From positions 640,001-704,000 of the forward strand of contig CAWAOD010000009.1 in the NCBI GenBank assembly GCA_963783575.1: a stretch of 64,000 bases of DNA. Direction: 5' to 3'. The stretch comes from an uncultured Spirochaetota bacterium (GTDB lineage: Bacteria > Spirochaetota > Brevinematia > Brevinematales > JAOACQ01). The notes beneath the pieces are model-generated. The model searched no databases. It was not told the DNA's origin and saw nothing but the letters and a program-made list of their open reading frames with translations. Shown in pieces: positions 25,631 to 33,543 of this stretch. The translations under genes and the position numbers were made by a program. Every line of letters starts with the position of its first letter. The first letter of the stretch is position 1.

Positions 25631-26046
25631 AGAAAGTTGATTCGATCATTGTAACGGCCTTCCCGGCAAGTTCCATATCCTCGTTTTCCGGAAGCCCGCT
25701 AATGCCAAGAGCCCCCGATCACTTCCCCGTTATAACGGACAGGAACACCGCCGCCCCATGCAGTATAGCGGAGATTGCCGAAATTTGTCATTGGAAAGCC
25801 GTCGTTTTTTGAGGCTTCGCCGACCTCTTTCGAATCCTTGCGTTCGCGGGCTGCAGTAAATGCCTTATTCATCGCGACATAAATTGATGAAAAGGGACAG
25901 CCGTCTATTCTTAAAAAAGCAAGTAACTCTCCATGTGAGTCGGTCACAGCTATCGCGGCTTTCCTGTTTGACTTTTCCAGCTCACCCCTGATAAGGGCAA
26001 TGATTTTCATGGCATCATCATGAGAAAGGTTATTCGATTTAAACAT
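25629..26046 (-). pseudogene. GlcG/HbpS-family heme-binding protein, frameshifted in a G run
   Basis: AIAVTDSHGELLAFLRIDG..NKAFTAA..WGGGVPV. Removing one G at 25712-25716 restores VIGALGISGLPENEDMELA..TF*. Confidence 0.82.
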
Positions 26047-26238
26047 AAAAACCTCGATTTTTTGTAATTATAAAAAATAATTATATACCTATCAAGTTCA
26101 TTCATGTAATATGAAGGCTAACTCTCTGTTTTTTGTCCTTTTGCACTAATTACTTTTGAAAACGGTAAAATTATTCCTCTTTTTTTGGATGGTTTCTATT
26201 ATGACACGGAAAAAATGAAGCCTGTCTCTTGCAATTAA

Positions 26239-26529
26239 TTATCTGGATATTTTTGTACTTGTAAATTGAGGGCCTTTTTCGCTTTCTAATACATACCAAA
26301 AATAAACGGTATCGGTTCTTAAATCAATCATATTTTCTATTGTTTTTGGAATTTCATCCCATGTCATTATTGCTTCATTATAAGTAATTTCATAAACTGA
26401 TTCTGTTCTTTCTATTGCTTTAAGAGTTTCTCTTAAAAAGTCCCGAACAGTTTTTTGTTTATCTGAATCACTTATATCATAAGCTACTATTATATTGGAA
26501 AATCCAATATCTACAGTACTTATTGGCAT
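26239..26529 (-). CDS. Orphan Cas2-like (ferredoxin-fold) protein
   Basis: IIVAYDISD..TVRDFL..ESVYE..IENMIDLRTDTVYFW follows the Cas2 pattern hhhYDIsd..SVFE..iD..D.v.hy; GGAGG RBS. Confidence 0.65.
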   Translation of the reverse strand: MPISTVDIGFSNIIVAYDISDSDKQKTVRDFLRETLKAIERTESVYEITYNEAIMTWDEIPKTIENMIDLRTDTVYFWYVLESEKGPQFTSTKISR

Positions 26530-26718
26530 ATATTAAACCTCCTGAAAATTAGTAGTTAAATGTTTGTTTTATTAAATAAATTTTGTCTTTAAAAATTTTA
26601 AATGTTTTTTTTACGTGTTTCAAAATCTTCATATTTAAATTCATGATCTTCTTTAGTTATAATTAAATCATTTGTGAAAACATAAATAATTCTTCTTTTT
26701 TATTGTAGATTTAATAAT

Positions 26719-26901
26719 TTAATCAACTGGTTTTTGAATGGTATCTTCAGAAAAGTCACCTGAACATAATGCCCATGTTCCATCTGTTTTATTATAATTA
26801 AACCAGATACAAGTTGCTATACCGTTTACTAAAGAATCAATTGTCATTTTAGGGCCATAACTTTTCAATTGAATAACATCTCCGACTTTTAATGTTTCCA
26901 T
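26719..26901 (-). CDS. YodC/DUF2158-family small protein
   Basis: LKVGDVIQLKSYGPKMTI..CIWF; AAGGAG RBS. Confidence 0.8.
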   Translation of the reverse strand: METLKVGDVIQLKSYGPKMTIDSLVNGIATCIWFNYNKTDGTWALCSGDFSEDTIQKPVD

Positions 26902-27060
26902 TTTTTAAACTCCTTATTTATAATTCTATAAAAGTTTATCCTGTTTATATTTAATTGTCAATATTAACTCTTAAAAATATTATAAGTTCTTTCAGGTAAA
27001 ACATGACATAATTCATTTATTGTTATATAATTATGTATTATTGAATAATAGGAGAAATAT

Positions 27061-27750
27061 ATGCAGAAAAAAGAATTATCGTTACTTACACTTCAAAGTA
27101 AATTTGATTCAGTAATTAAATGTGAAAAGTATCTTTTTAAACAAAGATGGCCTGAAGGTTTTATTTGTCCTGCTTGTGGTAATAAAGATTATTATTTCAT
27201 AAAAACAAGAAAACAATATGAATGTTCTAAATGTCATCATCAAACTTCATTAATAGCAGGAACTATTATGCATGGTAGTAGAATATCATTGAAAAAATGG
27301 TTTTGGGCAATATATTTATCTTCCACTGATAAAGGCGGAATATCTGCAATGACATTAAAAAAGAGCATTTTAGTTTCTTATCCGACAGCTTGGTTAATGT
27401 TACATAAAATCAGAGAAGCTATGAAAGCAAGAGATGCTGAATATCAATTGGCTGGATTAATTGAAATTGATGATTCTTATTTTGACGGCAAAGATGAAGA
27501 TAATAAAAGAGAAAGAGGGTCAAAGAAAGCTAAAGTATTAGTGCAGGTTTCAACAACTAAATATTGTAATTTCTAATGCAAATACTTTTATAAAAGGAAC
27601 TTATCATGGAGCTTGTAATGAACACATTCAAAAATATTTTAATGAGCTTTGTTATAGATCTAATAAAAGATTTTGGGAAAGACAATTATTCAATAGACTT
27701 TTAACAGCTTGCACTGATTGTAATATAATTACTTATAAAGGTTTGATTAA
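27061..27750 (+). pseudogene. IS1595-family transposase remnant with internal deletion
   Basis: RWPEGFICPACG zinc ribbon, YPTAWLMLHKIR, IEIDDSY. The C-terminal piece ISNANTFIKGTYHG..YFNELCYRSNKRF follows in another frame from ~27560. Confidence 0.85.
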
Positions 27751-27763
27751 ATAAGGTATTTAT

Positions 27764-28027
27764 TTAAGAACAAGAAATAGAATTGAAATCTATATTATGA
27801 AATTTTTTAGGTAACATGTTTTTTAACAATAATTTATCGGCTTTTGAATAACCCATTATTTCAATTCCAACAATTCTATTAGTTTTCATTTCTTTCATAA
27901 TATAAATATCTAGTCCATTAAAATCTTTTTCAACAGAATAACAATCATTACATTTATCGATTAATATACCCAGAATATCGTATTCCGGGTTATAATTGCA
28001 TATATATTTGAAATTACTTCTTTTCAT
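27764..28027 (-). CDS. DUF2283-like small protein (putative antitoxin)
   Basis: YNPEYDILGI..T.RIVGIEIMGYSK pattern. Confidence 0.65.
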   Translation of the reverse strand: MKRSNFKYICNYNPEYDILGILIDKCNDCYSVEKDFNGLDIYIMKEMKTNRIVGIEIMGYSKADKLLLKNMLPKKFHNIDFNSISCS

Positions 28028-28343
28028 ATATTATTCCTTGGTTAATTTTTATTGCTTTTTTATCAATTATATGACTAGTAACAATATAACTTGGTTCACT
28101 TGTATAACTCATTTCAACTATTACTTTTATTCTATATTTACCATAATTATATAACATACCAAAATAATTTAATCTTGTATCATAATGTTCGTTAGGTAAT
28201 ACCAAGATTGGGTCTTCAATTGCTTGCTTTATCACATGAACTTTTGTTTCTAAATCTGGATGTCCAGGTAAAATATGCTCTTCCCACGTGCTTTTTTTAA
28301 GTCCAACTTGTTTATTAAATATATCGGTAGTTAAAAATATCAT
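28014..28343 (-). CDS. Hypothetical protein, putative DUF4258/BECR-like RNase toxin
   Basis: TWEEHILPGHPDL..IKQAIEDPILV..IKVIVE..YIVTSH; overlaps the DUF2283-like gene by 14 bp. Confidence 0.55.
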   Translation of the reverse strand: MIFLTTDIFNKQVGLKKSTWEEHILPGHPDLETKVHVIKQAIEDPILVLPNEHYDTRLNYFGMLYNYGKYRIKVIVEMSYTSEPSYIVTSHIIDKKAIKINQGIIYEKK

Positions 28344-28353
28344 AATAGTAATT

Positions 28354-28605
28354 TCACTTTATTTCTTTATCTATAACTTCTGGTTTTGGAGGTATTTTAA
28401 TTTCACCAAACTGCTTCTCATATGTAATTAAAGTTTCATTTAATACTTGATTTAATAATTTTGCATGTTGAGGACTCATAAAAATAATAGCTTCTGAAGT
28501 AACACTATTATCAATATTAATACCAATCTTCATTATTATATCTGTAAAACTTAATCCAACACTAACCGAATTAGTGTAATATATTTGTTTCTCGATAGCA
28601 TCCAT
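28354..28605 (-). CDS. DUF3467-like small protein
   Basis: YTNSVSV..DIIMKIG..IFMSPQHAKLL..L..YEKQFGEI; AGGAGG RBS. Confidence 0.7.
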   Translation of the reverse strand: MDAIEKQIYYTNSVSVGLSFTDIIMKIGINIDNSVTSEAIIFMSPQHAKLLNQVLNETLITYEKQFGEIKIPPKPEVIDKEIK

Positions 28606-28779
28606 AAATACCTCCTACGAGGTATACAGGATAACACGAAATAAAAATACTTTCAATACTTTTTCATTTTAAATTTAAACTAAATTTGTTTAATAATCAA
28701 ATTATATTTATAATACTCCTCTATTTATATATTCATAAAAATTCTACCTAAATGAACTTGATAGTCATAAATAATTCTT

Positions 28780-31637: not shown

Positions 31638-32009
31638 TTATTCATTTATCTTATTTTCTACAAATACAAGAATTTTTTTGGCGTTTACTATTGCCTGTTT
31701 GACGTCTTCCAAATCAGGATCCAGAATATCATCAGGATATCGAAATACAGGAGAAATATTTTTAGCATATTCAAAAATAATAGAAAATGATAGGTCTATT
31801 TTTTCATAAATTTCTGTCAATTCAACAACATCTTGAGTTTTAATCAGTGGTTTTTTTTTATAAGACAAAAAAGCTTTTAAAGCTTTTTCTCCGCTTTGCT
31901 GGGCATGATAAATGGCAGTATCAAGTAATGGCTTTTTGTTTCCAATTAGAACTATTGATACTTCAAGATCATTTCTGGCTTTATATAACCATTTTTCGTA
32001 CATTTTCAT
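31638..32009 (-). CDS. HEPN-domain protein (possibly degenerate)
   Basis: WLYKARNDL..AIYHAQQSGEKALKA..RYP; the usual KTHDL reads KTQDV. Confidence 0.8.
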   Translation of the reverse strand: MKMYEKWLYKARNDLEVSIVLIGNKKPLLDTAIYHAQQSGEKALKAFLSYKKKPLIKTQDVVELTEIYEKIDLSFSIIFEYAKNISPVFRYPDDILDPDLEDVKQAIVNAKKILVFVENKINE

Positions 32010-32322
32010 AAATTTTTTTGCCTTCAGATTTAATTTTATAGCAAAGTGAAGAAACATCTTCTGCCATTTCTTCAAATTCATGCCTGGTATAAACTAAAAT
32101 ATCTTTTCTAAGTAAAAGCCCTCTGAGTGAGTCAATTCCTATAATTAGTCTTTAATAATTTTTCTCATCGGATTTGTCCACAATAATCAATAAATCCAGA
32201 TCACTGTCTTTGGTTGGCTGACCCCAGGCATATGAACCAAAAAGATAAATTACAGCAGGATGATAAACATTGATTAAGCGGTTTTTTATAATCTCCAGCA
32301 TATTATTATCTACTATTTTCAT
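31981..32322 (-). pseudogene. Minimal nucleotidyltransferase (MNT) with in-frame stop; absent from the ORF track
   Basis: Manual translation: MKIVDNN..IYLFGSYAWGQPTKDSDLDLLIIV..NY*RLIIG..DILVYT..EF..EGKKIYE; TAA at 32152-32154. Confidence 0.82.
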
Positions 32323-32672: not shown

Positions 32673-33543
32673 CTAAGCTTTGATCTCTGTCCCGATACCC
32701 GCATCGGTTAGAAGTTCAAGCAATACTGAATGCTCAACCCTTCCGTCAATAATATGCACTTTTTCAACGCCGCTTTTGATGGCTTTTATCGCGGAATCGA
32801 TTTTTGGAAGCATTCCTTTTGTAATAATACCGGCTTCCTTCAGCTTAATAACCTCTTCTTCGCTGATGCTTGTATAAAATGATGCCTCATCATTTACATC
32901 CCGGTAGATGCCTTTTATATCAGTCATATAAATTAGCTTTGCCGCTTTTACGCTTAATGCGATTTCACCAGCGGCAGTATCGGCGTTAATATTATATGTC
33001 TCTCCGTCTTCACCGATCGCGACCGGTGAAACAACGGGAATATAGCCGTCTCCGGCCAGGGACAGAAGGAGTCCAGGATTTATACGAACTATAGTTCCGA
33101 CCTGTCCCAGGTCTAGGCCTTTACCGCTTTTATCCTCTTTTTTTTTCGCAACAATCAGATTGCTGTCCTTGCCGGAAAGCCCGACGGCACTGCCGCCATT
33201 GACATTTATCAAAGCGACTAGCTCCTTATTTAGAAGCCCGCTTAAAACCATCTCGGTTATTTCCATAGTTTCCCTGTCAGTTACCCTGTGGCCTTCCAGA
33301 AAGATTGCCTCTTTTCCCAGCCTTTCCATGCAGATTTGTTATATGAGGCCCTCCTCCGTGAACAACGATTATTTTTATACCGATAAGTTTCAGCAGTACA
33401 AAATCCTGGATCGCCTTCTTTTTCAATTCCGGTTCATCCATTGCGTTACCGCCGTATTTAATGACAACTATTTTATTGTTAAATTCCTTGATATATGGTA
33501 GAGCTTCCATTATGATCCGAGCTTTTTCGATATATTTCTGCAT
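32673..33543 (-). pseudogene. argB: Acetylglutamate kinase, frameshift at ~33330
   Basis: VIKYGGNAM..VVHGGGP in one ORF; GHRVTD, NINADTAA, GMLPKI in the next; one extra base joins them. Confidence 0.9.

What the first reader, a model, noticed from the sequence alone, without database searches (positions are those of the whole stretch)
26239..26529. Orphan Cas2-like gene with no cas1 and no CRISPR array
Seen: a 96-aa ORF with its own RBS follows the Cas2 pattern along its length (IIVAYDISD, ESVYE, IDLRTDTVYFW) and keeps the N-terminal Asp. No cas1, other cas gene or repeat-spacer array is visible in the 64 kb. Known: Cas2 normally sits beside cas1 and shares its fold with VapD toxins. Inference: this may be a stand-alone nuclease, toxin or defence protein in an accessory island, possibly working with the upstream YodC-like gene.
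Basis: partly seen in the sequence, partly recalled or inferred. Interest (0 to 1): 0.7.

Follow-up and report, generated by a model that had tools for sequence, protein, structure and literature searches.

The report
Tail-less Cas2-like gene on a transposon
This small gene encodes a relative of the CRISPR protein Cas2 that lacks the tail Cas2 uses to grip its partner Cas1 and rides as cargo in a decayed jumping gene, so it probably works on its own, most likely as a nucleic-acid-cutting enzyme, though nobody has tested it.

Summary
The ORF is real (minus strand, 96 aa) and Cas2-like: Pfam 27.6 bits against a 23.8 cut-off, and the 13 best structural matches are Cas2 proteins. The window has no cas1 or array. 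The genome does hold a complete type I-C system, with its own cas2, on another contig; the two Cas2s are not sisters. The gene belongs to a small, patchy family (18 sequences). The family keeps the acidic active-site residue (18 of 18) but ends about 8 residues early, without the Cas1-binding tail, and is mostly acidic. All 4 neighbourhoods seen are solo. Here the gene is cargo in a decayed 2.7-kb IS1595-family transposon. The upstream YodC gene has the SH3 fold of VapX/VapY antitoxins but is absent from the 3 other loci. Best reading: a stand-alone Cas2/VapD-type dimeric nuclease (about 45%, untested). The scan has noted other orphan Cas2-like genes elsewhere, but a sequence look-up found none like this one. 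New variant of a known kind; moderate interest.

The parts
26239..26529 (-). Cas2-fold gene (P0001, 96 aa) of a tail-less stand-alone family; Asp18 and Ser44 kept
26538..26543 (-). Shine-Dalgarno sequence (AGGAGG), 8 nt before the ATG
   Evidence: sequence
26719..26901 (-). YodC/DUF2158 gene, 60 aa, SH3/KOW-type barrel; co-passenger, antitoxin role not shown
   Evidence: absent from 3 of 3 other family loci
26084..26108 (+). left terminal inverted repeat (arm A) of the transposon
   Evidence: outer 10 bp match 9/10 the ends of an intact related element in G006
28745..28769 (-). right terminal inverted repeat (arm C)
   Evidence: core 18/20 with arm A; outer 10 bp 9/10 with the G006 ends
26973..26998 (+). 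degenerate inner copy of the repeat (arm B), where the related element has its transposase-side end
   Evidence: score 32; 0 of 382 low-GC background 60-mers reach 28
26076..26083 (+). left 8-mer of a probable target-site duplication
   Evidence: 7 of 8 identical to 28770-28777; 0.3% of island intergenic 8-mer pairs do as well
28770..28777 (+). right 8-mer of the probable target-site duplication
27061..27754 (+). IS1595-family transposase gene, broken by an internal deletion of about 180 bp
   Evidence: Pfam Zn_ribbon_IS1595; 73% identical to an intact transposase in G006; gap in the DNA match; two pieces
27764..28027 (-). 87-aa passenger, weak DUF2283 match; possible antitoxin (role recalled, not tested)
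   Evidence: E 0.042, under cut-off; phrog_36767 E 1.9e-6
28014..28343 (-). 109-aa passenger overlapping the DUF2283-like gene by 14 bp; possible toxin of that pair (by eye only)
   Evidence: no Pfam, NCBIfam or PADLOC family; one weak PHROG hit, E 0.028
28354..28605 (-). DUF3467 passenger gene, 83 aa
   Evidence: 36.2 bits against 25

Best explanation
P0001 is a CRISPR-independent member of the Cas2/VapD fold family, delivered to this chromosome as cargo of an IS1595-family transposon that has since lost its transposase. Shown by sequence and models (about 0.85-0.9): the Cas2 fold, a separate tail-less lineage, a solo context, and cargo status. Inferred (about 0.45 overall): like Cas2 and VapD it forms a homodimer whose two Asp18 residues, with Ser44 in the beta2-beta3 turn, line a central cleft. 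With no tail it cannot be built into a Cas1-Cas2 integrase, so it acts alone as a low-toxicity nuclease, more likely on RNA than DNA given its acidic make-up. It would be an accessory stress or defence gene comparable to the antitoxin-less VapD proteins and BPSL1038. No dimer, activity, substrate or expression was tested.
For: Fold: VIA ranks 1-13 of 48,161 chains are Cas2 or Cas2 domains (Z 7.9-10.0; best 1zpw Z 10.0, rmsd 3.6, 73 aligned); the next row is Z 6.6. All Foldseek rows listed are Cas2-containing entries. Tail: model residue 96 aligns to residue 75 of the 93-residue E. coli Cas2 chain (4qdl_E). Residues after the invariant Asp73 number 21-26 in 18 of 18 family members, against 28-36 in 37 of 38 canonical Cas2s (alignment). 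The C-terminal strand matters for Cas1-Cas2 formation (PMC10491678, section 8). Active site: position 18 is acidic in 18 of 18 (14 D, 4 E) and position 44 is S/T in 14 of 18; the Asp/Ser pair is the metal site in Cas2 and the proposed catalytic site in VapD. Lineage: the family is one side of a 100/99 branch against 38 canonical Cas2s; P0001 with the host Cas2 is rejected (p-AU 6e-6; 22% identity). Context: 0 of 3 other loci hold Cas1, an array or YodC; G405 has a member and no Cas1 match. A candidate defence pair (PADLOC PDC-M24A/B) lies 1.8 kb from the L036 member. About half of VapD-like genes have no antitoxin (PMC11980593, section 13), and a CRISPR-free Cas2-like DNase is known (PMC10491678).
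Against: No activity data. The family is acidic: median pI 5.1, with 14 of 18 under pH 6, against median 8.7 and 8 of 38 for canonical Cas2s; P0001 has net charge -6. That is awkward for a nucleic-acid enzyme, though the DNase BPSL1038 is also acidic. Position 18 is Glu in 4 of 18 and position 44 is neither S nor T in 4 of 18; the invariant columns are Asp73 and Trp78, not the catalytic pair. The conserved Gln before the Ser is kept in 0 of 18, and the family's Arg sits one residue off the canonical Arg that LinCas2C needs for DNase activity (PMC9510766 abstract passage). Two of four loci (L037, L041) lie among ordinary genes, with gene GC equal to the flanks (0.51 vs 0.53 and 0.53 vs 0.54) and no defence or mobility signal. 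Only 4 of 18 members have a known neighbourhood.
Confidence: 0.45

Rival explanations
1. It is a non-catalytic ferredoxin-fold dimer derived from Cas2: an acidic protein-binding, metal-binding or nucleic-acid-mimicking module with a regulatory or scaffolding job unrelated to cutting.
For: Acidic composition. The invariant residues are Asp73 and Trp78 and the conserved C-terminal L-x-R-T-K motif, which look structural. Ser44 is lost in 4 of 18. Members in G401 and G405 look settled among ordinary genes.
Against: Position 18 stays acidic in 18 of 18 despite 23-39% identity to P0001, which a purely structural role would not require. The acidic BPSL1038 is an active DNase.
Confidence: 0.25
2. It is a decoy Cas2: a tail-less subunit that pairs with the host's Cas2, or competes for its DNA, and so damps spacer acquisition against the mobile element, in the way VapW neutralises VapD.
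For: It keeps the Cas2 core but lacks the Cas1-binding tail. It rides a mobile element in a genome with an intact type I-C system. G401 also holds a canonical cas2 elsewhere. A dominant-negative role was proposed, untested, for a viral Cas2 homologue (bioRxiv 10.1101/2023.08.24.554615, passages). VapW is a precedent.
Against: It is only 22% identical to the host Cas2. G405 has a member but no Cas1 match (completeness not given), and G401 has only a 112-aa Cas1 fragment. No relative was found in phages, plasmids or viral contigs, where an anti-CRISPR would be expected.
Confidence: 0.1
3. It is the toxin of a two-gene toxin-antitoxin pair, with the upstream YodC/DUF2158 SH3 barrel acting as a VapX/VapY-like antitoxin.
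For: The YodC model is an SH3/KOW barrel (pLDDT 93; best Z 8.3, rmsd 1.4, 52 aligned), the fold class of VapX and VapY (PMC11980593). Antitoxin-first order, same strand, and the two genes lie alone between arms A and B.
Against: YodC is absent from 3 of 3 other family loci, and none of the 8 other YodC loci fetched holds a family member. The genes are 189 bp apart, not coupled. SH3 barrels are very common (156 chains at Z >= 5), and no VapX entry is among the 50 rows shown.
Confidence: 0.1
4. It is a stranded, decaying cas2 left from a lost or rearranged CRISPR locus.
For: It passes the Pfam Cas2 cut-off, its closest structures are CRISPR Cas2s, and a transposon could have picked it up from a cas operon.
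Against: The frame is intact with a strong RBS. All 18 members share the same early C-terminus and family-specific residues. None of 4 loci has cas genes or repeats. It is not derived from the host cas2.
Confidence: 0.05

Closest known systems
CRISPR-associated Cas2 (PF09827, TIGR01573; e.g. PDB 1zpw, 3exc, 2i0x, 4qdl)
   Same: Ferredoxin fold, beta1 Asp, S-V-[YF]-E motif, Asp before beta4; best sequence-profile and structure matches.
   Different: Not beside cas1 or an array; lacks the C-terminal Cas1-binding tail; conserved Gln replaced; N-terminal extension of about 7-20 residues; invariant Trp78; mostly acidic.
VapD toxins, with VapX, VapY, VapW or no antitoxin (PMC11980593; abstract and sections 3, 13, 18 read)
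   Same: Stand-alone Cas2-fold proteins with an Asp/Ser site; about half have no antitoxin; SH3-fold antitoxins occur.
   Different: Structurally further away (VapD-VapW complex 9kan Z 5.3, against Z up to 10.0 for Cas2); no VapD-named family among the NCBIfam matches of 18 members; no conserved antitoxin neighbour.
BPSL1038 Cas2/VapD nuclease subfamily (PMC10491678; abstract and sections 8, 9 read)
   Same: CRISPR-independent, acidic Cas2-fold protein that keeps the Asp and lacks the Cas1-binding strand.
   Different: No D-(X20)-SST motif (25 residues lie between Asp18 and Ser44) and no C-terminal helix; Z 6.2 only.
IS1595-family transporter insertion sequences (MTnSag1, tISCpe8; PMC5704250, passages read)
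   Same: IS1595 transposase, 25-bp terminal inverted repeats, 8-bp flanking direct repeat, passenger genes.
   Different: Transposase broken by a deletion; three end copies (A, B, C) suggest a nested or composite unit; the cargo is small uncharacterised genes.

Membership tests
CRISPR Cas2 | Cas2-type ferredoxin fold | tested here: met
CRISPR Cas2 | Pfam PF09827 above its cut-off | tested here: met
   27.6 against 23.8; 7 of 18 family members pass
CRISPR Cas2 | TIGR01573 equivalog above its cut-off | tested here: not met
   14.6 against 24.5; 5 of 18 members match at all at E <= 0.1
CRISPR Cas2 | Conserved beta1 aspartate | tested here: met
   Asp18; acidic in 18 of 18
CRISPR Cas2 | Encoded beside cas1 and a CRISPR array | tested here: not met
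   0 of 4 loci; the host cas locus is on another contig
CRISPR Cas2 | C-terminal strand that binds Cas1 | tested here: not met
CRISPR Cas2 | Works in a Cas1-Cas2 integrase | not testable with these tools
   needs an experiment
VapD toxin | Catalytic Asp and Ser in the dimer cleft | tested here: inconclusive
   Asp18 and Ser44 are present by alignment to Cas2; not aligned residue by residue to a VapD
VapD toxin | Sequence or structure closer to VapD than to Cas2 | tested here: inconclusive
   VapD-VapW entry Z 5.3 at rank 48 against Cas2 Z up to 10.0; no VapD chain among 19 profile hits
VapD toxin-antitoxin pair | Adjacent VapX, VapY or VapW antitoxin | tested here: inconclusive
   SH3-fold YodC upstream in 1 of 4 loci; binding not modelled
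VapD toxin | Toxicity or nuclease activity | not testable with these tools
   needs an experiment
BPSL1038 subfamily | D-(X20)-SST motif and C-terminal alpha3 helix | tested here: not met
   definition
IS1595 transporter element | IS1595-family DDE transposase | tested here: met
   broken copy
IS1595 transporter element | About 25-bp terminal inverted repeats enclosing the cargo | tested here: met
   arms A and C; the 18/20 match alone is modest (12 of 339 real low-GC windows), and support comes from the 9/10 match to the G006 element's ends
IS1595 transporter element | 8-bp target-site duplication | tested here: inconclusive
   7 of 8 here; 8 of 8 in the G006 element
Short PaaX-like regulators (earlier notes of this scan) | Winged helix fused to the Cas2-like domain; gene bracketed by long palindromes | tested here: not met
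   single 96-aa domain; no bracketing palindromes among the repeats listed for 4 loci

The most novel reading that the evidence does not exclude
A Cas2 offshoot that has shed its Cas1-binding tail travels on transposons and acts as a decoy subunit: it pairs with the host's Cas2 and blocks new spacer acquisition. It would be an anti-adaptation gene made from Cas2 itself. A second bold reading not excluded is that the family is a surviving free-living relative of the nuclease from which CRISPR Cas2 was recruited, nearer to Cas2 than VapD is.
Probability: 0.1. Interest if true: 0.75.

Novelty: new variant of a known kind. Interest (0 to 1): 0.4.

Why it matters
Whether Cas2's nuclease activity has a job outside spacer capture, and what kind of free-living protein Cas2 came from, are open questions (PMC3506569, passages). 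This family is nearer to Cas2 than VapD or BPSL1038 are, yet it consistently lacks the Cas1-binding tail and lives outside CRISPR loci, so it is a clean small test case. It also warns annotators: 7 of 18 members pass the Pfam Cas2 cut-off, and one is labelled CRISPR-associated Cas2 by its source. The surprise is limited because stand-alone Cas2-fold nucleases and IS1595 elements with cargo are both known, and the family is small.

Tried and rejected
Word-index protein search with P0001 found only itself. The full scan gave 15 other hits, of which 2 were dropped as repeat-protein artefacts (P0007, P0016). P0008 was left out of the 18-row alignment as near-identical to P0017. No longer or fused forms were found among 8000 candidates (weak evidence). 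No relatives in plasmids, phages, viral contigs or viral models (0 at E <= 0.001). Relatives of this genome: 0 of 40 with P0001. In 400 genomes of the phylum, 38 had profile hits, all at most 37.8 bits; the 29 loci fetched were canonical Cas2s, 27 of 29 with Cas1 within the locus. (0 of 400) covers largely the same genomes and is not independent. Broad alignments could not be used for locus scans; one genome scan found nothing. A full-length motif scan of the large collections was not run, so only 4 neighbourhoods are known. ESM Atlas hits were under 0.9 and are leads only. No RNA holder listed; the one DNA run has no cover over the gene. Complex prediction of P0001 with YodC was not available, so binding is unmodelled. 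The promoter scan was not above chance (14 found against 8.8 +/- 3.5). Host spacers show no full-length match elsewhere in the genome (three 16-bp hits). I considered and dropped an integron, Xer or LexA reading of the repeat once the related IS1595 element showed the same end motif. Paper searches for solo or orphan Cas2 listed no description of this family; the library lacks most subscription papers, and no supplements were read (the VapD paper's supplementary lists could include members). The DUF2283 toxin-antitoxin link is recalled and was not confirmed (one listing, not read).

Full report
OBSERVATION. The ORF at 26239-26529 is on the minus strand and encodes 96 aa (P0001), with AGGAGG 8 nt upstream. 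It passes Pfam CRISPR_Cas2 (27.6 bits, cut-off 23.8) and hits many PADLOC Cas2 models, but not the TIGR01573 cut-off (14.6 against 24.5). An AlphaFold2 model on a 17-row alignment (pLDDT 94.8) gives Cas2 entries throughout the Foldseek list and at ranks 1-13 of 48,161 chains with VIA (Z 7.9-10.0, next row 6.6; BPSL1038 6.2; VapD-VapW 5.3). The window has no array and no Cas1.

THE GENOME HAS CRISPR ELSEWHERE. The window is C9:640001-704000 of a 4.9-Mb assembly, 89.85% complete. Contig C3 has cas1, a canonical cas2 (91.9 bits) and a 21-repeat array, preceded by ORFs I read as cas3, cas5, cas8c, cas7 and cas4. P0001 is 22% identical to that Cas2 over 69 residues. A tree forcing the two together is rejected (p-AU 6e-6; 35 rows, thinned from 56). 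So P0001 is a second, foreign gene and not a moved copy.

A SMALL FAMILY. A full scan of 1.84 billion representatives gave 15 other hits. Two are repeat-protein artefacts; 13 are 93-107 aa proteins at 26-41% identity. Later calls added P0017-P0019, P0020 and P0022. The final alignment has 18 rows. I compared them with 38 canonical Cas2s: the host's, plus 37 from 29 loci of the same phylum that had been picked as weak hits of the family profile, 27 of 29 with Cas1 beside them. The family is one side of a long 100/99 branch (103 columns, few for 56 rows). It keeps an acidic residue at position 18 (18 of 18) and S/T at 44 (14 of 18), has invariant Asp73 and Trp78, and never keeps the Gln two residues before the Ser (0 of 18; present in 8 of 8 canonical rows). 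It ends 21-26 residues after Asp73, against 28-36 in 37 of 38 canonical proteins; the exception has 23. Structurally, the last residue of P0001 aligns with residue 75 of the 93-residue E. coli Cas2 chain. The missing piece is the C-terminal strand described as important for Cas1-Cas2 assembly (PMC10491678, section 8). Because all members end there, this is not a sequencing error in our copy. The family is mostly acidic (median pI 5.1 against 8.7; canonical rows were trimmed at the N-terminus, family rows were not).

NEIGHBOURHOODS. Four independent loci were seen. (i) This window. (ii) L035/L036, one locus in two metagenome assemblies with 1.7 kb upstream: after a beta-propeller gene, with an HTH gene and a DUF6978/DUF1828-1829 pair (PADLOC candidate PDC-M24A/B) downstream. 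(iii) L037, a Deltaproteobacteria MAG: between a divergent 395-aa gene and an MFS transporter. (iv) L041, genome G405: between a redoxin and DUF1826. None of (ii)-(iv) holds Cas1, an array, YodC or an IS1595 transposase. G405 has no Cas1 match; G401 has a 112-aa Cas1 fragment beside a canonical cas2 on another contig. The family was found in 2 of the 6 genomes of G401's phylum and not in the 400 genomes of this genome's phylum that were searched, which fits horizontal arrival here.

THE ISLAND IS A DECAYED TRANSPOSON. GC drops to 25.4% over 26084-28769, against 34.5% on the left and 44.8% in uvrA. An imperfect inverted repeat marks both ends (18 of 20 in the core). By itself this is modest: 4 of 374 shuffles and 12 of 339 real low-GC windows do as well. 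Independent support comes from genome G006 of the same family. Its intact IS1595 transposase, 73% identical to the broken one at 27061-27754, sits in a 4779-bp element with inverted ends, an exact 8-bp duplication and two passengers, one an N6 methyltransferase. The outer 10 bp of both of our arms match those ends at 9 of 10. Cut at the same register, the flanking 8-mers here match at 7 of 8 (0.3% by chance among island intergenic 8-mers). A degenerate third arm lies at 26973-26998, where G006 has its transposase-side end. IS1595 elements with 25-bp ends, 8-bp duplications and passengers are described (PMC5704250, passages). That this end motif fits the ISSod11 group is recalled, not from a call. 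I infer an inner element B-C (transposase, DUF2283-like gene, 109-aa gene, DUF3467) extended by arm A to carry YodC and the Cas2-like gene.

YODC. The 60-aa upstream protein folds as an SH3/KOW barrel, the class of VapX and VapY (PMC11980593, abstract and section 18), so an antitoxin role is conceivable. Against it: a 189-bp gap, absence from 3 of 3 other family loci, and no family member in the 8 other YodC loci fetched from 201 genomes. The complex could not be modelled.

MECHANISM. Shown: fold, lineage, missing tail, solo context and cargo status. From established knowledge: Cas2 and VapD are dimers whose paired Asp residues, with a Ser, form the metal or catalytic cleft; isolated Cas2s can be RNases or DNases (PMC9510766, passages); antitoxin-less VapD-like genes are common. 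Inferred: P0001 is a homodimeric stand-alone nuclease of low toxicity, an accessory stress or defence gene (0.45). Rivals are a non-catalytic acidic dimer (0.25), a decoy that blocks host spacer acquisition (0.10; idea also voiced, untested, for a viral Cas2 homologue), a toxin paired with YodC (0.10) and a CRISPR remnant (0.05).

MEMBERSHIP AND NOVELTY. It is not a CRISPR Cas2 (context, tail and equivalog score fail) and not a BPSL1038-type protein; VapD membership is inconclusive. It most likely works like the stand-alone members of this fold. Four paper searches listed no description of this family. For the six papers opened I read only the abstracts, sections or passages named above, and no supplements. 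The scan's earlier notes list other orphan Cas2-like genes (unchecked), but a sequence look-up found no look-alike of P0001. Verdict: a real, undescribed tail-less Cas2 subfamily carried here by an IS1595 transposon; a new variant of a known kind; interest 0.4.

Noticed in passing
G000 C14:392300-394300 (outside the window): A second low-GC islet with two ORFs (about 225 and 148 aa). One is followed by a copy of this transposon's end motif and the other by a G006-type end, and each then by a roughly 260-340-bp repeat (87% identical) with partial copies on three other contigs. It may be a hot spot for IS1595 mini-cassettes.
   Followed up: partly
L073:7922-12700 (G006): Intact 4779-bp IS1595 transposon with an exact 8-bp duplication, carrying an 874-aa N6 methyltransferase-type protein and a 281-aa protein without a Pfam or PADLOC match: a mobile candidate defence unit.
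   Followed up: partly
window 27764-28343: Overlapping 109-aa and DUF2283-like genes look like a toxin-antitoxin pair; the 109-aa protein has no family match.
   Followed up: partly
window 31638-32322: HEPN and nucleotidyltransferase (MNT) pair upstream of uvrA; the MNT frame has an in-frame stop after 56 codons and continues behind it.
   Followed up: partly
window 25640-26046 and 32673-33543: The HbpS/GlcG-like gene and the acetylglutamate kinase-like gene each switch frame once; assembly indel errors are possible in this genome.
   Followed up: partly
L002:78-464 (G000 C3): A 128-aa ORF that looks like a GIY-YIG nuclease (by eye) lies between cas4 and cas1 of the type I-C locus.
   Followed up: no
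window 26067-26095: Arm A, read outward, contains an 11/12 sigma-70-like promoter facing the HbpS-like gene, so the transposon end may drive that gene.
   Followed up: no
L070:872-1260 (G006): Two convergent YodC-like genes just upstream of another IS1595-type transposase, so YodC may travel with IS1595 elements independently of the Cas2-like gene.
   Followed up: no
L038:1513-2126 (G401): A cas1 reduced to 112 codons sits directly before an intact cas2 and repeat-like sequence.
   Followed up: no
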